DNA of 64,000 nucleotides from Thermodesulfobacteriota bacterium. Lineage in GTDB: Bacteria; Desulfobacterota_D; UBA1144; Nemesobacterales; UBA2774. Positions 24,414 through 27,995 of this stretch are shown in pieces. Position 1 is the first letter of the stretch, and every line of letters starts with the position of its first letter. The position numbers and the translations under genes are program-made. Location: positions 544,001 through 608,000 of the forward strand of contig OY729416.1 of NCBI GenBank assembly GCA_963422265.1, written 5' to 3'. The notes beneath the pieces are model-generated. The model made no database searches. It was not told where the DNA came from and saw nothing but the letters and a program-made list of their open reading frames with translations.

Positions 24414-25556
24414 TCAAAGAATTTTATAAACTAGCTTCTCAAAACCATGACAGATGTCTATACACGCCTTATAGTAAAAGGGCAGCATCTGCATCATTAT
24501 AACGGCGGCTATTTTCCTTTTATAATCGAACCAGAAAAAGGTGTTTCTTATACCGCCCCAAGAGCAGCTACCGGGCGAGCGCAGATATTGATTGTCTTGC
24601 GTGGGCGAGGTTATTTGAAAACCGAGTCCAAACTTGTCGCTTTGCCCACCTGGAGGGAAATACTTGAATGAATCTGATACTGCGTCCTGTCTCATCCGAG
24701 CGACTAGGTTGCCGATTTGATTACTTGTCATAAGCCCAATAGACGCATCGCTGAGTATGCGAACGCCATCAAGCTCCCCTCGGTTAAGAAACATCATGAG
24801 AAACCTTATATAATCTCTCGAAGTAGAATATAATCCAGAATCTCCCATAATTTTATCTTCGTGTCCTTCCGGTCGTTCCACTTCAATAAAATCCCCTCCT
24901 CTCTTCCTATACGTTTTGACAAGGCGACTGCACTTTTCCCTCGGAACGGTAAAAAAAGTATCATTCATACAAAGGGGATCAAAAATTTTCTCTATGAAAA
25001 ACTCTTCAAGCCCCTTACCTGATAGCTCTTCCACTAGCTTGCCCAAAATACTTGTGCTGGGTCCATACATCCATGCTGAACCGGGGTCAACAACAAGCGG
25101 AAGCTCGATTGGATTCTTACCCGTTTTTCTCATAATTAGATTAACGGTGCGGTTGAAGTACTGGTATGCAAACCCTGACGTGTGCGTAAGCAAATGCCTT
25201 ACTGTTATCTCTTTTTTGGCGGGTCTTGCTTTATATCTGCCGCTATCCTCATCAAATTTCGTTACAACTTCTGCGTTCTTGAAAGAAGGAAGAAATCTTG
25301 AAATCGGATCGTCCAGCGTTAATACCCCCTCTTCAGCTAGCATCATTACCGCAACCGACGTTACTGGCTTAGTCATGGAATATACGGCGAATATAGAGTC
25401 CTTTCTCATTTTAGCGTTCTGAGAGAAATCCATAGTGCCAAATGCGCCTTCATAAAGTATTTTATCCTCACTTGCAACGGAAGCGCTCATGCCCGGAACG
25501 GTGCAATTTTTTGTTGCAATTCTAAGGAATTCGTCAATTTTAGCGGTGTCTCTCAC
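24414..25556 (-). CDS. Serine hydrolase, beta-lactamase family
   Basis: SMTK (SxxK), LLTHTSG, WGG. Confidence 0.9.
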   Translation of the reverse strand: MRDTAKIDEFLRIATKNCTVPGMSASVASEDKILYEGAFGTMDFSQNAKMRKDSIFAVYSMTKPVTSVAVMMLAEEGVLTLDDPISRFLPSFKNAEVVTKFDEDSGRYKARPAKKEITVRHLLTHTSGFAYQYFNRTVNLIMRKTGKNPIELPLVVDPGSAWMYGPSTSILGKLVEELSGKGLEEFFIEKIFDPLCMNDTFFTVPREKCSRLVKTYRKRGGDFIEVERPEGHEDKIMGDSGLYSTSRDYIRFLMMFLNRGELDGVRILSDASIGLMTSNQIGNLVARMRQDAVSDSFKYFPPGGQSDKFGLGFQITSPTQDNQYLRSPGSCSWGGIRNTFFWFDYKRKIAAVIMMQMLPFYYKACIDICHGFEKLVYKIL

Positions 25557-25712
25557 AGATGCATCCTGTTAGGAAATCCGCGAAATTATACTGATGGCAA
25601 ACGAAATTGTAAAACAAGGTAATAACGGAAAAGGGAGATTTTGAAATGATCCCGAGGTTATTTCAGTGCAGAATGAGCCTTAGGGAACTTTTGGCATTTT
25701 TAGCAAAGAAAC

Positions 25713-25744
25713 TTATTGACATCATTACGTAATGATGTTAATAA
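25713..25744 (+). promoter_or_regulatory. 32-bp palindromic operator overlapping a sigma70 promoter
   Basis: TTATTGACATCATTAC|GTAATGATGTTAATAA (1 mismatch); contains TTGACA at 25716 and a -10-like TAATAA at 17-bp spacing. Confidence 0.75.
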
Positions 25745-25751
25745 TAGGTAT

Positions 25752-25973
25752 GTGACTGCTGAAACAATAAAACAGAGGGCAAACCCAAACAAGATGCACA
25801 GGGGTTCGCTTTATATACCGACTTTGCTTTATGAGAAGCTAAGGCTCCATTCATTTGTATCCAGAAAAAGTCAGTCAAAAATCATTGAGGAGGCAATTTC
25901 AGAATACCTTGATAGAGCTATGGCGAGCGAAGAACTCAACAATGTAACGATTATGCACCGAAAAGGTGATTAA
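25752..25973 (+). CDS. Ribbon-helix-helix DNA-binding protein
   Basis: HRGSLYIP (beta strand) + TLLYEKLRLHS + KSQSKIIEEAISEYL. The ORF-track TTG at 25716 is the -35 box, so the start is more likely GTG 25752 or ATG 25794. Confidence 0.75.
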   Translation: MTAETIKQRANPNKMHRGSLYIPTLLYEKLRLHSFVSRKSQSKIIEEAISEYLDRAMASEELNNVTIMHRKGD

Positions 25974-26012
25974 AAAATTCCTTGACGAATAATTTAATTG
26001 GGAGAATAGTCA

Positions 26013-26492
26013 ATGACGGTAAAAGATATAATTAAACTTTTAGTTGAGAACAAGGGATGGTACCTGGTAAGACTTCGCGGGAGCCATCGTCAGTTTAAGC
26101 TAAGAAATCATAAAAAAAGAGTTACGATAAACTGTAAAATGGAAAAGGTGATACATGAGAGTACTGTTGATCACATACTTAAACATTGCTTTGACACAGA
26201 TAGTATCGTTGTAAAGAATAATTATAAAATTACGATAGAAAAGTCTCCAAATTGCTACTCCATCCGCTGCGACGATCTACCAGGATGCGTTGCCGTAGGT
26301 GATACGATTAAAGAAACGAAAGAGCTTATGATGGATTCTGTCCGTCTTCATTTAGAAGGATTGAAGCAGGACGGGATTATATGTCCTGACCCTTCCGAAG
26401 CTTCGGCGCTCTTCAAGCTGGAAGAAGAGGATACCGTTACGACAAAAGACCTTTCTCCAGAATGGCTACTATGTGAAAACCAAGTGTTTTAG
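26013..26492 (+). CDS. Single-chain HicA toxin-HicB antitoxin fusion
   Basis: aa 1-58 HicA-like (GWYLVRLRGSHRQFK...RVTI...TVDHILK); aa 71-128 HicB N-domain (YKITIEK...YSIRCDDLPGCVAVGDTIKETKELMMDSVRLHLEGLKQDGIICPDP); GGAG RBS. Confidence 0.85.
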   Translation: MTVKDIIKLLVENKGWYLVRLRGSHRQFKLRNHKKRVTINCKMEKVIHESTVDHILKHCFDTDSIVVKNNYKITIEKSPNCYSIRCDDLPGCVAVGDTIKETKELMMDSVRLHLEGLKQDGIICPDPSEASALFKLEEEDTVTTKDLSPEWLLCENQVF

Positions 26493-26525
26493 CATGTTAA
26501 GCTTACAGAGTCGAGGCTAAACGCC

Positions 26526-27995
26526 TTATTTGTTCATTATATATTCCACAAGCGTCCTTACGCCAAAACCCGTTCCACCTTTAGGGCTCCAGTTGCTGCT
26601 TTTTTCAAGGAATGCGGGTCCTGCTATATCTAAATGCGCCCATGGCACGTCCCCTACAAAATTCTCAAGAAACATAGCGGCAGTTATAGCCCCACCCCAT
26701 CTGTTGCCTACGTGCTTGACATCAGCTACGCTGCTCTCTAACTCAGCTCTAAGCTCGTCATCCATAGGTAACTCCCACGTTTTCTCTCCAACTTTATCGG
26801 AAGCTTCTCTAAGCTTATCAATTAGCGTATGGTCATTGCCCATTATTCCAGCAGTGTAGTTACCTAGTCCTACGATGCAAGCTCCTGTAAGGGTTGCCAA
26901 GTCAACAATTTCATCCGCCCCGAGCTCGACTGCGTATGAAAGAGCATCTGAGAGAACCAGCCTCCCTTCTGCATCGGTATTAACTATTTCAATGGACTTT
27001 CCATTGTAAGCCCTTATCACGTCGTCCGGTTTATAGGCTTTTCCACCCGTCATATTCTCGCTTGCGGCAATCAAGCCATGCACCTTTACAGAAGGCTTCA
27101 ATATAGCGATAGCCCTCATTATGCCTATCACGGTTGCGGAGCCTGCCATATCCATCTTCATCGTGCGCATACTATCAGGCGGCTTTAAGCAGAGCCCCCC
27201 GGAATCAAACGTGATTCCCTTTCCTACAACTGCTATACTCTTTCTAGTCTTTTTTGGAGGCTCATATTCAAGATGTATAAATCTGGGTTCTTGATCACTA
27301 CCGCTGGATACTGCCATTAGCCCTCCCATAGCCTTCTTTATAATCTCTTTGAGATCAAAAATTTCGCACTTCAAATTAACCTCTTCCGCAACTTCCAACG
27401 CAATATCGCTAAGTTTAGTAGGGGTTAGATATATTGGAGGCTCATTAACTAAATCTCTAGCGAGGTTGGTTGAATCAGAGACAGTTCTTGCTAAGTCAGC
27501 TTCTCTATCAAAAGCATCTCCTTTTACGCTGCTTGATATACAGATTACTTTCTTAGTTTTATTATTGGATTTATGCGTTTTATATTTGTTAAACTCATAA
27601 CTGCCGAGTAGTAAGCCTTCAAAAAGCGCAGAAATATACCCACTCTTGCTGCAAAACAAGGAATCAAAAGCGATGATTGAACAGTAATTTTTAACCTTTT
27701 TTGAGGCAAGTGCAGCGACCTTCCTCAGATTCACAGACGAGAATTCTTGCTTATTACCAAGCCCGAGTAGTAGAACCCGTTCGGAACCGATTTTTCCAAA
27801 GGTGCTGTTTAACATAAGGCTCTTGCCAAGCTCACCATCAAATTTTTCATCTTTCGTGATAGCTTTAAGTTTGCCTTCTAACGCTTCGTCAATCTTTTTA
27901 ATTGTTCCTGTTAACTTTGCACCCTTGAATATCCCGACGACTAAAACGTCAGCCTCTATCTTTAGGATATTCTCTTTGCTCTGAAAAATGTCCAC
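26526..27995 (-). CDS. pepA: Leucyl aminopeptidase (M17)
   Basis: GKGITFDSGG, MKMDMAG, NTDAEGRL, WAHLDIAG. Confidence 0.96.
   Translation of the reverse strand: MDIFQSKENILKIEADVLVVGIFKGAKLTGTIKKIDEALEGKLKAITKDEKFDGELGKSLMLNSTFGKIGSERVLLLGLGNKQEFSSVNLRKVAALASKKVKNYCSIIAFDSLFCSKSGYISALFEGLLLGSYEFNKYKTHKSNNKTKKVICISSSVKGDAFDREADLARTVSDSTNLARDLVNEPPIYLTPTKLSDIALEVAEEVNLKCEIFDLKEIIKKAMGGLMAVSSGSDQEPRFIHLEYEPPKKTRKSIAVVGKGITFDSGGLCLKPPDSMRTMKMDMAGSATVIGIMRAIAILKPSVKVHGLIAASENMTGGKAYKPDDVIRAYNGKSIEIVNTDAEGRLVLSDALSYAVELGADEIVDLATLTGACIVGLGNYTAGIMGNDHTLIDKLREASDKVGEKTWELPMDDELRAELESSVADVKHVGNRWGGAITAAMFLENFVGDVPWAHLDIAGPAFLEKSSNWSPKGGTGFGVRTLVEYIMNK

What the first reader, a model, noticed from the sequence alone, without database searches (positions are those of the whole stretch)
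25752..26492. Rewired HicAB system: single-chain HicA-HicB fusion with a separately encoded RHH regulator
Seen: one 159-aa ORF contains a HicA-like dsRBD RNase (G23-S24-H25 retained), a ~12-aa linker and a HicB toxin-binding domain (DLPGC..GDT..E), ending in an acidic tail with no DNA-binding domain. The linker codons contain no stop and no ATG/GTG/TTG, so HicB cannot be initiated separately there. Directly upstream is a stand-alone RHH gene. Established: canonical hicAB encodes HicA separately, and HicB carries its own C-terminal RHH or HTH that binds promoter inverted repeats. Inference: the three domains were repartitioned into RHH plus (toxin-antitoxin). This gives a fixed 1:1 auto-inhibited RNase that cannot be switched on by differential antitoxin decay, so it would need cleavage or an allosteric trigger, as in fused CapRel defence proteins. 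The 7 Cys residues hint at redox or metal control. Domestication into a non-toxic regulator is the alternative. I cannot confirm novelty without a search.
Basis: partly seen in the sequence, partly recalled or inferred. Interest (0 to 1): 0.82.

Follow-up and report, generated by a model that had tools for sequence, protein, structure and literature searches.

The report
Fused HicA-HicB with separate RHH repressor
One bacterial family carries a conserved two-gene cassette, a small DNA-binding repressor followed by a single protein joining an RNA-cutting toxin domain to its own antidote domain; it is a new wiring of a fused toxin-antitoxin type that is already in print.

Summary
ORF 26013-26492 (159 aa) matches Pfam HicA_toxin (aa 4-58) and HicB_lk_antitox (aa 71-135) in one frame. 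Gene 25752-25973 directly upstream is an RHH protein. The fusion is not an accident. Intact fused genes occur in 46 loci and in 16 of 24 genomes of the same family. The RHH gene is always upstream where upstream DNA exists. An exact 18-bp core of a 20-bp palindrome sits in the promoter spacer in 45 of 45 loci that include that DNA. Both domains are under strong purifying selection (pN/pS 0.08 and 0.12), and G23 and H25 are invariant. The cassette is chromosomal, syntenic and confined to one family of a Dadabacteria-like phylum.

The novelty is overstated. Single-chain HicA/HicB proteins were noted in 2016 (Slr1999). They were classified in 2023 (Gerdes classes 11-13), where the CapRel analogy was already drawn. 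What the text I read does not describe is this wiring: HicA-HicB without a DNA-binding domain plus a separately encoded RHH. I read it as an RHH-autorepressed, cis-inhibited RNase. The trigger is unknown. Family-specific invariant cysteines near His25 leave a redox or metal gate open.

The parts
25716..25745 (+). Sigma-70-type promoter of the cassette: TTGACA, 18-nt spacer, AATAAT (11 of 12). The start codon lies 6 nt after the -10 hexamer, so the RHH mRNA is probably leaderless.
   Evidence: scan; 5 promoter-like sites found against 3.1 +/- 1.9 expected, so the scan alone is weak. One search shows the same -35, spacer and -10 layout in 12 of 12 loci, with the start codon 6-9 nt after the -10.
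25719..25738 (.). Putative RHH operator: a perfect 20-bp palindrome ACATCATTAC|GTAATGATGT that fills the promoter spacer. The imperfect inverted repeat extends to 25713-25744.
   Evidence: 1 match in the window at up to 3 mismatches, 0 in 100 shuffles; arms of 16 nt, 94% complementary. The exact 18-bp core is present in 12 of 12 genome loci and in 33 of 33 metagenome loci that include DNA upstream of the RHH gene. It is the only exact copy in the 1.78-Mb genome. The diverged cassette L019 carries two copies. Binding by the RHH protein is inferred, not shown.
25752..25973 (+). RHH gene (GTG start, 73 aa): N-terminal arm aa 1-16, RHH core aa 17-58, short C-terminal tail aa 59-73.
   Evidence: RHH_1 21.6 bits against cut-off 20.5; strand-helix-helix model; the weak best PDB matches are nearly all RHH proteins. 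Homologues are 67-79% identical over residues 1-71/73 in 11 of 11 loci. pN/pS of codons 2-14 is 0.15, so the N-terminal arm is translated.
25974..26012 (+). 39-nt spacer between the genes, with Shine-Dalgarno GGGAG at 26000-26004.
   Evidence: spacers of 36-42 nt with GAGAGGA- or GGGAG-type motifs before the ATG in 12 of 12 loci.
26013..26186 (+). HicA domain (aa 1-58) of the fused gene. It has the dsRBD alpha-beta-beta-beta-alpha fold. The His25 codon is at 26085-26087.
   Evidence: H3-13, E16-22, E25-30, E36-40, H49-58; 6g26_E, TMt 0.77, rmsd 1.9 A over 59 columns; G23 and H25 in 36 of 36; pN/pS 0.083.
26187..26219 (+). Linker (aa 59-69). It has no in-frame start or stop, and its length is fixed in the family.
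   Evidence: codons; pLDDT about 67; pN/pS 0.32; 40 of 43 complete proteins are exactly 140 aa.
26220..26429 (+). HicB N-terminal-type domain (aa 70-139), beta-beta-beta-alpha-beta, with no DNA-binding domain.
   Evidence: E70-77, E82-86, E92-96, H99-119, E135-139; 6g1c, rmsd 1.3 A over 50 columns; pN/pS 0.12 for aa 71-123.
26430..26492 (+). Acidic tail specific to this genome (aa 140-159) plus the stop codon. It is predicted to be disordered.
   Evidence: pLDDT about 41; relatives end ...[RK]QAS at residue 140; a strain variant has C154Y here.

Best explanation
This is a lineage-specific, chromosomally fixed HicAB-type module whose three usual domains are wired differently. Gene 1 encodes a small RHH repressor, probably translated from a leaderless mRNA. 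I infer that it binds the 20-bp palindrome in the spacer of its own promoter and so keeps the two-gene operon at a low, steady level. Gene 2 encodes one polypeptide. In it an intact HicA RNase domain (Gly23 and His25 kept) is tethered by a fixed-length linker of about 11 residues to a HicB N-terminal-type domain. By analogy with solved HicAB complexes, that domain covers the HicA active site.

Because toxin and antidote are made 1:1 in one chain, and the repressor is a separate protein, the classical switch cannot work as such. That switch depends on a labile antitoxin and on repression tuned by the toxin:antitoxin ratio. The RNase would instead be released by something acting on the fused protein itself: a binding partner, cleavage or unfolding of the HicB part, or chemistry at its cysteines.

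Shown: domain content, conservation, selection, operon layout, operator conservation, taxonomic range. Inferred: DNA binding by the RHH, cis-inhibition, RNase activity, and the existence and nature of a trigger.
For: Both Pfam domains lie in one frame. The folds of both domains were modelled (pLDDT 75.8; pTM 0.71 for the whole chain although 27 residues are disordered). Each domain matches solved HicA or HicB.

Of the 26 proteins with E <= 0.001, 22 clusters other than the window's own carry both domains (55-66% identity). Full-length frames without stops occur in 16 of 24 genomes of the same family. There are 46 loci with the fused gene, giving 36 distinct complete proteins with G23, H25, C41, M43, C81 and C92 invariant.

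pN/pS is 0.083 for HicA and 0.12 for HicB, with synonymous sites near saturation (pS 0.69-0.79).

The RHH gene is directly upstream in 11 of 11 genome loci and in 34 of 34 family loci from metagenomes that include upstream DNA. In the 24 family genomes searched with both queries, RHH and fusion are present together in 16 and absent together in 8.

The 18-bp palindrome core is exact in 45 of 45 loci that include that DNA, although the proteins differ by up to about 45%. It is unique in the genome. It is duplicated in front of the fused gene in the diverged cassette L019.

The same genome also keeps an ordinary split hicA/hicB pair (65 and 75 aa) with no RHH upstream, so the fused form is a distinct, maintained state.
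Against: There is no experimental or RNA evidence. I could not obtain model coordinates, so capping of His25 by the HicB domain is not shown.

The cassette behaves unlike a typical mobile toxin-antitoxin or defence gene. It is confined to one family (21 of 32 further family genomes plus the window's own; 0 of 87 genomes of 8 other families of the phylum). It sits in conserved chromosomal synteny with ordinary genes: a beta-lactamase-fold gene, a PEMT/ICMT-like gene, FMN_red and Metal_resist. It is absent from the viral and plasmid collections searched. It has no PADLOC hit.

The Pfam RHH score is only just above the cut-off, and the structural matches of the RHH model have E > 1.
Confidence: 0.6

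Rival explanations
1. Domesticated module. The fused protein is no longer a toxin-antitoxin pair. It is a constitutively tamed RNA-binding protein or RNase with a housekeeping or regulatory role in this family, expressed under simple RHH autoregulation.
For: Inheritance is vertical and syntenic within one family. Purifying selection acts over deep divergence. There are no mobile or defence neighbours and no PADLOC hit. None was found in the viral or plasmid collections. About a third of family genomes lack it, so it is dispensable.
Against: The residues needed for HicA catalysis are invariant (G23 and H25 in 36 of 36), and the HicA domain is the most constrained part. A tight autorepressor with an operator conserved to the base is the usual way to keep a dangerous product low.
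Confidence: 0.2
2. Redox- or metal-gated RNase. Family-specific cysteines around the catalytic His25, together with cysteines of the HicB domain, form an interdomain metal site or disulfide. This locks the cap, and oxidants or loss of the metal release the RNase.
For: C41, C81 and C92 are present in 36 of 36 distinct proteins, C59 in 33 of 36 and C22 in 31 of 36. C41, C59, C81 and C22 have no counterpart in the split HicA/HicB pair of the same genome, which has one Cys per protein. In the modelled sheet, C22 ends strand 1 and C41 follows strand 3. Both flank the start of strand 2, where His25 sits; this placement is my inference from the strand topology. In alignment A2 the three cluster sequences that lack C59 are the only three with a Cys at position 9; the locus set shows the same swap in two proteins (C:2 at position 9, P:2 at position 59).
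Against: There is no CxxC or other known metal motif. C92 belongs to the general HicB 'PGC' motif. Two of the seven Cys in this window are not conserved, and one is Tyr in a strain variant. No distances could be measured.
Confidence: 0.1
3. The RHH protein is a physical partner of the fused protein. It would act as a true antitoxin or co-repressor through its conserved N-terminal arm or C-terminal NV(L)MY tail, so the three domains still form one complex as in HicA:HicB-RHH.
For: The segments outside the RHH core are conserved at the protein level (pN/pS 0.15 and 0.24; N64 invariant and V65, L66, M67, Y68 at least 90% conserved). The RHH protein is more conserved than the fused protein (67-79% against 56-62% identity).
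Against: The tail after the RHH core is only about 15 residues. That is short for a toxin-binding arm (my recall of RHH antitoxins such as ParD and RelB). In this window the tail departs from the family motif. There is a precedent for a regulator that takes no part in neutralisation: omega of omega-epsilon-zeta (PMC4803016, section 11).
Confidence: 0.1
4. Assembly artefact or recent accidental stop-loss fusion of a split hicAB pair.
For: In-frame or overlapping split hicA-hicB pairs are common, so a single change can fuse them: several plasmid pairs are matched in one tblastn piece. Some scattered fused proteins elsewhere look frameshifted: 5 of 10 tested cover only part of the HicA profile.
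Against: There are 46 loci with the same fusion and a fixed linker length. Selection is strong on both halves. A variant strain's assembly (X6) differs by 18 substitutions but has no indel or stop.
Confidence: 0.01

Closest known systems
Gerdes class 11 fused HicAB (HicA-HicB-DBD in one chain; bioRxiv 10.1101/2023.12.08.570793, passages seen)
   Same: An N-terminal HicA domain is followed by a HicB RNase-H-like domain in one polypeptide, with an RHH-type DNA-binding function attached to the system.
   Different: In class 11 the RHH or HTH is the C-terminal domain of the same chain and the operon is monocistronic. Here the chain ends after the HicB domain, and the RHH is a separate 73-aa protein encoded upstream.
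Gerdes class 12 fused HicBA and Synechocystis Slr1999 (PMC4963859, passages seen)
   Same: A small single-chain HicA plus HicB protein without a DNA-binding domain. An auto-regulated toxin was already proposed for it in print.
   Different: Class 12 has the order HicB-HicA and is described as monocistronic. Slr1999 was reported as having no fused homologue. No separate RHH partner is described in the passages I read. The order here is HicA-HicB.
Class 1 split hicAB (small HicB without DBD), e.g. the pair in this same genome at G000:C1:833906-834288
   Same: The gene order is hicA then hicB and the HicB is short, without a DBD. The HicB part is 44% identical to aa 66-131 of the fused protein. 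It is the likely ancestral state.
   Different: It has two genes overlapping by 4 nt, no RHH gene upstream, and none of the family-specific cysteines.
Canonical HicAB with HicB-RHH or HicB-HTH (solved: 6G26, 4P78, 6HPB, 5YRZ)
   Same: The same three domain types are present, with a palindromic operator at the promoter.
   Different: The covalent connectivity differs: HicA is free and HicB is joined to the DBD, against HicA joined to HicB with a free DBD. Feedback by excess HicA on HicB-DNA binding (Gerdes introduction) cannot work the same way.
Three-component type II systems with a separate regulator: omega-epsilon-zeta, paaR-paaA-parE (PMC4803016, section 11 read)
   Same: The first gene of the operon is a dedicated repressor. 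Omega is also an RHH with an unstructured N-terminal arm. The antidote itself has no DNA-binding role.
   Different: The toxin and antitoxin families are unrelated, toxin and antitoxin are separate proteins, and omega binds heptad arrays rather than one palindrome.
Fused single-chain toxin-antitoxins CapRelSJ46 and EzeT (as summarised by Gerdes)
   Same: They work alike in principle: a toxin domain is inhibited in cis by an antitoxin domain of the same chain.
   Different: There is no sequence or fold relationship. A phage trigger is shown for CapRel, and nothing is shown here.

Membership tests
HicA toxin (PF07927) | Matches the family profile above the curated cut-off | tested here: met
   41.5 bits against cut-off 27, aa 4-58, profile positions 2-55 of 58.
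HicA toxin (PF07927) | dsRBD-like alpha-beta-beta-beta-alpha fold | tested here: met
   AF2 elements H3-13, E16-22, E25-30, E36-40, H49-58. Foldseek 6g26_E/F TMt 0.77-0.79, rmsd 1.9 A, prob 1.00, though E is only 0.02.
HicA toxin (PF07927) | Catalytic His in the Gly-x-His turn between strands 1 and 2 | tested here: met
   G23 and H25 are present in 36 of 36 distinct family proteins. H25 aligns with the Ala of 'GSAHHFK' in chains 4c26_A and 6g26_E. That this Ala is the mutated catalytic His24 is my recall.
HicA toxin (PF07927) | Ribosome-independent RNase activity and toxicity | not testable with these tools
   Needs expression and an RNase assay.
HicB antitoxin, N-terminal domain (PF15919) | Profile match above the cut-off and a partial RNase-H fold (beta-beta-beta-alpha-beta) | tested here: met
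   35.3 bits against cut-off 27, aa 71-135. E70-77, E82-86, E92-96, H99-119, E135-139. 6g1c rmsd 1.3 A over 50 columns.
HicB antitoxin, N-terminal domain (PF15919) | Binds HicA and covers its active site | not testable with these tools
   No coordinates are returned for the model. The pTM of 0.71 only hints at packed domains.
Canonical two-protein type II HicAB | Toxin and antitoxin are separate polypeptides | tested here: not met
   There is one frame with no stop or start in the linker. It is conserved in 46 loci.
Canonical two-protein type II HicAB | The DNA-binding domain is carried by HicB | tested here: not met
   No Pfam DBD is found on the fused protein. The region after aa 139 is disordered and specific to this genome. 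This feature is not universal in the family (Gerdes).
Gerdes class 11 fused HicAB | HicA-HicB-DBD in one chain, monocistronic | tested here: not met
   HicA-HicB is in one chain, but there is no DBD in the chain and the operon has two genes.
Gerdes class 12 fused HicBA | Domain order HicB then HicA | tested here: not met
   The order is HicA (aa 4-58) then HicB (aa 71-135).
RHH (CopG/Arc/MetJ) repressors | Profile match and a strand-helix-helix core | tested here: met
   RHH_1 21.6 bits against cut-off 20.5 (marginal). Extended segment 17-23, H24-37, H41-58 with pLDDT 90-97 over residues 21-50. The best PDB matches are RHH proteins, but with E 0.1-0.16 by sequence and E > 1 by fold.
RHH (CopG/Arc/MetJ) repressors | Binds a repeat operator at the regulated promoter | tested here: inconclusive
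   A conserved palindrome lies in the promoter spacer. Binding itself is not testable here.
Three-component TA with separate regulator (omega-epsilon-zeta type) | The regulator is the first gene of the operon and takes no part in neutralisation | tested here: inconclusive
   The gene order is met. Whether the RHH touches the fused protein is unknown.
Known anti-phage defence systems (PADLOC-DB 2.0) | Match to a defence-system model | tested here: not met
   0 families for either protein at E <= 0.1.

The most novel reading that the evidence does not exclude
The fused HicA-HicB is a cysteine-gated (redox- or metal-sensing) single-chain RNase. Family-specific invariant Cys41 and near-invariant Cys22 flank the catalytic His25. 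With Cys81 and Cys92 of the HicB domain they would form an interdomain metal site or disulfide that holds the cap shut. The trans-acting RHH only sets a constant sentinel level. This would be a chemically triggered, not proteolytically triggered, toxin-antitoxin switch, fixed in the core genome of one bacterial family.
Probability: 0.1. Interest if true: 0.7.

Novelty: new variant of a known kind. Interest (0 to 1): 0.4.

Why it matters
How single-chain HicA-HicB proteins are switched on is an open question that the 2023 classification raises explicitly. This cassette would suit that question as a model. It is small, deeply conserved (46 loci), has a sharply defined operator, and separates transcriptional control (RHH) from toxin control (the fused chain), so the two can be studied apart. 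It also shows that a HicAB-type module can become a vertically inherited, syntenic chromosomal gene pair in one lineage. That bears on whether such modules are selfish, defensive or domesticated. It does not overturn anything known.

Tried and rejected
- Complex prediction with two RHH chains plus the fused protein gave no answer (score 0.00). It is neither for nor against binding.
- RNA evidence: no RNA holder was listed. Run X8 ('RNA?' is only a guess) gave three short contigs covering parts of the stretch. This says nothing about expression.
- NCBIfam: no family for the fused protein. The RHH has only a weak sub-threshold hit to slr0373_blue (22.3 bits against cut-off 100).
- PADLOC: no hit.
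- The search for related loci on genome contigs returned only two distant HicB-only matches. Relatives were found with the genome search instead.
- Viral contigs: 74 pattern matches, none confirmed. BFVD fold search: no match with E <= 0.001, only single-domain resemblances.
- Plasmids: 49 records, all below 60% identity. The 14 of 15 listed rows that carry annotation lie over two separate genes, and one row has none. Neither of the two neighbourhoods I opened has an annotated RHH.
- RHH alignment against longer proteins (133-2000 aa): nothing at E <= 0.01. This is weak evidence against a fused HicB-RHH ancestor.
- Hits of 147-212 aa with two matched stretches were suspected to be further HicA-HicB fusions. 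All 10 tested lack HicA, and 9 of them show two HicB stretches, so they look like tandem HicB-HicB proteins.
- A 2-mismatch copy of the palindrome at G000:C1:658861 lies inside a 250-aa ORF, so it is a chance match.
- Promoter-like sites at 25982-26010 and 26191-26219 are not conserved in relatives' spacers. They are within the number expected by chance.
- My first flank comparison found no shared neighbours (flanks of 1.5 kb). Longer metagenome flanks reversed this.
- The search of earlier findings by sequence found nothing.
- ESM Atlas gave scores of 0.86-0.88, which are leads only. It pointed to the Slr1999 cluster, which I then checked in print.
- Supplementary Table S1 of the Gerdes paper could not be opened. 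It may list members of this family.
Full report
**Observation.** The window holds an ORF at 26013..26492 (+, ATG, 159 aa) and, in front of it, an ORF in the frame of 25716..25973. Pfam places HicA_toxin on aa 4-58 (E 1.4e-10, 41.5 bits, cut-off 27) and HicB_lk_antitox on aa 71-135 (E 1.5e-8, 35.3 bits, cut-off 27) of the 159-aa protein. It places RHH_1 on aa 23-55 of the upstream protein, only just above the cut-off (21.6 against 20.5 bits). Codons 59-70 contain no stop and no ATG, GTG or TTG, and the protein has seven Cys at 41, 59, 81, 86, 92, 124 and 154. The description is therefore correct at the stated coordinates.

**The frame is real.** Contigs of three runs from three studies cover 25600-26600 in one piece without any insertion or deletion. 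Two of them are near-identical and may be the source of this DNA. The third (X6) is a strain variant with 18 substitutions. Applied to the window, those substitutions give no stop, no change in the RHH protein, seven amino-acid changes in the fused protein (including C154Y), and an intact palindrome.

**The fusion is conserved.**
- A word-indexed search of 5.8 billion proteins found 26 proteins at E <= 0.001 among 31 candidates. Of these, 22 clusters other than the window's own carry both Pfam domains, are 140-143 aa long and are 55-66% identical.
- In 41 genomes (own plus 40 relatives), full-length frames without stops are present in 16 of 24 genomes of the same family. The tally of 17 of 24 in that call includes G016, whose matches are a split pair.
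- A metagenome scan added 38 loci.
- Altogether 46 loci hold a gene matching from residue 1. Of these, 43 are complete, 40 of them exactly 140 aa, and they give 36 distinct complete proteins.
- The exhaustive search of 1.84 billion representatives gave only 2 hits at E <= 1e-30 and 26 at E <= 1e-10, so the family is narrow.

**Selection.** Over 12 loci, pN/pS is 0.083 for the HicA domain, 0.32 for the linker, 0.12 for the HicB domain and 0.30 for aa 124-138. Synonymous differences are near saturation (pS 0.66-0.79). G23 and H25 are present in 36 of 36 distinct proteins. The toxin half is the most constrained part, so the locus is not decaying.

**The RHH gene and its operator.**
- tblastn finds the RHH protein directly upstream of the fused gene in 11 of 11 related genome loci, at 67-79% identity over residues 1-71/73.
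- It finds it in 34 of the 38 metagenome loci. The four without it are two contigs that begin inside the fused gene (L056, L057) and two unrelated HicB-only matches (L059, L060).
- Homologues begin with ATG or GTG at the position of GTG 25752. Codons 2-14 have pN/pS 0.15, so the 73-aa reading is right.
- Upstream lies TTGACA, 18 nt, AATAAT (11 of 12). The spacer is filled by the perfect palindrome ACATCATTAC|GTAATGATGT at 25719-25738. It has 1 match in the window at up to 3 mismatches and none in 100 shuffles. The inverted repeat extends imperfectly to 25713-25744.
- The 18-bp core is exact in 12 of 12 genome loci and in 33 of 33 metagenome loci that include DNA upstream of the RHH gene.
- It is the only exact copy in the 1.78-Mb genome. 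A 2-mismatch copy lies inside a coding region.
- In the most diverged cassette (L019, fused protein 45% identical) there are two copies, one before the RHH gene and one before the fused gene.
- The start codon follows the -10 hexamer by 6-9 nt in all 12 loci, so the RHH mRNA is probably leaderless.
- The fused gene has its own Shine-Dalgarno motif after a spacer of 36-42 nt.
- That the RHH binds this palindrome and represses the operon is inference from the layout and from what RHH repressors do.

**Structure.**
- AlphaFold2 with a 37-row alignment gives mean pLDDT 75.8 and pTM 0.71. It shows alpha-beta-beta-beta-alpha (aa 3-58), a linker, beta-beta-beta-alpha-beta (aa 70-139) and a disordered tail (aa 140-159, pLDDT about 41).
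- Foldseek against the PDB puts HicB N-terminal domains (6g1c, rmsd 1.3 A over 50 columns) and HicA (6g26_E/F, TMt 0.77-0.79) at the top. E-values are only about 0.02 because each match covers one small domain.
- By sequence, H25 aligns with the Ala in 'GSAHHFK' of 4c26 and 6g26. I recall these as the H24A catalytic mutant of Burkholderia pseudomallei HicA.
- The RHH model has an extended segment at 17-23 and helices 24-37 and 41-58, with pLDDT 90-97 in the core. Its weak best matches are nearly all RHH proteins.
- No coordinates are returned, so I could not test whether the HicB domain covers His25.

**Distribution and context.**
- The RHH profile finds the gene in 21 of 32 further genomes of the same family plus the window's own. 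It finds it in 0 of 87 genomes of the eight other families of the phylum.
- In the 24 family genomes searched with both queries, the two genes are present together in 16 and absent together in 8.
- Source names of relatives read Candidatus Dadabacteria or Thermodesulfobacteriota.
- Among 19 metagenome loci with long flanks, a PEMT/ICMT-like membrane protein lies upstream in 14 and a roughly 207-aa protein lies downstream on the other strand in 14.
- A beta-lactamase-fold gene lies directly upstream in 3 of them, as it does in the window (51% identity).
- Nothing mobile or defence-related was seen among the recurring neighbours I annotated.
- There is no PADLOC hit, no relative in viral contigs, and only split pairs below 60% identity on plasmids.
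- The cassette is therefore an old, vertically inherited but dispensable chromosomal resident of one family.

**Origin.**
- The same genome has two other HicA loci. One is an ordinary split pair: HicA 65 aa and HicB 75 aa overlapping by 4 nt, with no RHH gene upstream. The other is a hicA frame with an internal TAA behind an 80-aa gene that I read, without a family search, as HicB-like (DUF1902 type).
- The split HicB is 44% identical to aa 66-131 of the fused protein.
- A genome of a neighbouring family has the same split form without an RHH.
- Several plasmid pairs are matched in a single tblastn piece across both genes, so one change can fuse such a pair.
- The likely history is fusion of a small DBD-less hicAB pair plus recruitment of an RHH gene, rather than splitting of a HicB-RHH protein.
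- A search for longer proteins containing this RHH found none. That is weak evidence.

**Cysteines.** C41, C81 and C92 are present in 36 of 36 distinct proteins, C59 in 33 of 36, C22 in 31 of 36, C86 in 24 of 36 and C24 in 13 of 36. C124 and C154 are peculiar to the window. C92 belongs to the general HicB 'PGC' motif, whereas C22, C41, C59 and C81 are absent from the split paralogues. By the modelled strand order, C22 (end of strand 1) and C41 (after strand 3) flank His25 (start of strand 2); this is my inference. In alignment A2 the three cluster sequences without C59 (P0021-P0023) are the only three with a Cys at position 9. The locus set shows the same swap in two distinct proteins (C:2 at position 9, P:2 at position 59). 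This keeps a redox or metal gate open, but there is no known motif and no measured distance.

**Comparison with print.**
- Kopfmann et al. 2016 (PMC4963859, passages) describe Slr1999 as HicA and HicB domains in one protein. [quoted passage not shown]
- Gerdes 2023 (bioRxiv 10.1101/2023.12.08.570793; abstract and passages) defines 14 HicA contexts. Class 11 is HicA-HicB-DBD in one chain, class 12 is a small HicB-HicA fusion and class 13 is a large one. All are called monocistronic. The paper compares them with CapRelSJ46 and EzeT. It also states that HicB without a DBD is the commonest arrangement and that its regulation is unexplained.
- Searching that text for 'third gene', 'three-gene', 'tricistronic' and 'upstream gene' found nothing.
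- A library search for five phrasings of 'fused HicAB' found two papers, of which one was listed, this same work.
- A broader search (HicA, HicB, fusion) returned 78 papers. I saw the listing of 20.
- I could not open Table S1.
- Separate RHH regulators are known from omega-epsilon-zeta, and separate regulators also from paaR-paaA-parE (PMC4803016, section 11 read in full). Omega likewise has an unstructured N-terminal arm before its RHH.
- Other scattered short HicA-HicB proteins exist. All 10 that I tested carry both domains. Five cover nearly the whole HicA profile and five look frameshifted.
- An Atlas lead points to a 170-member Slr1999-like cluster (score 0.86, a lead only).

**Verdict.** The anatomy is confirmed and the fusion is a fixed, selected state. 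The wiring (HicA-HicB without a DBD, plus a trans-encoded RHH with a base-perfect operator, fixed in one family's chromosome) is not described in the text I could read. It combines two known themes, fused HicAB and three-component systems with a separate regulator, so I rate it a new variant of a known kind. The mechanism (RHH autorepression, cis-inhibited RNase, unknown trigger) is the best-supported reading at about 0.6. A domesticated role is at about 0.2, a cysteine-based gate at about 0.1 and RHH as a physical partner at about 0.1.

Noticed in passing
window 25740-25754 and the corresponding positions in L004-L014: The RHH start codon (GTG or ATG) lies 6-9 nt after the -10 hexamer in 12 of 12 loci, with no consistent Shine-Dalgarno motif. 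The RHH is therefore probably translated from a leaderless mRNA, while the fused gene has a normal ribosome-binding site.
   Followed up: partly
L019 1256-1290 and 1500-1525 (G003:C1, about 2546155-2546425): The most diverged cassette carries two copies of the palindrome, one before the RHH gene and one before the fused gene. Its RHH N-terminal arm is out of frame after a run of nine A, which could be a sequencing error or a real loss.
   Followed up: partly
G000:C1:833906-834288 (-) and G000:C1:1716925-1717089 (+), outside the window: The same genome holds two other HicA loci. One is a normal split hicA/hicB pair (65 and 75 aa, 4-nt overlap, no RHH). The other is a hicA frame with an internal TAA behind an 80-aa gene that I read by eye as HicB-like (DUF1902 type).
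   Followed up: partly
window 26430-26492: The window's protein replaces the family's conserved C-terminal ...[RK]QAS (41 of 43) with a 19-residue longer acidic tail. The conserved QAS end of the relatives might be a degradation signal; this was not tested.
   Followed up: no
proteins P0034, P0036, P0046, P0059, P0063, P0079, P0094, P0103, P0174: Proteins of 147-194 aa made of two HicB-like domains in tandem and no HicA domain.
   Followed up: no
protein P0043: A predicted protein of 7702 aa has six stretches matching the HicB part of the query (E 1.3e-11). This suggests HicB-like modules repeated in a giant protein.
   Followed up: no
window 24414-25556 (-) and loci L027, L029, L033: A beta-lactamase-fold serine hydrolase gene (PF00144, E 3e-62) lies divergently upstream of the cassette, here and in three metagenome loci (51% identity). 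Other relatives have PEMT/ICMT-like, FMN reductase and Metal_resist genes nearby.
   Followed up: partly
window 26139-26141 (Met43 of the fused protein): Met43 inside the HicA domain is invariant in 36 of 36 proteins, although HicA proteins outside this clade have other residues there. One database entry (P0025) starts at it. An internal start giving a HicB-only product is conceivable, but no ribosome-binding site was seen.
   Followed up: no
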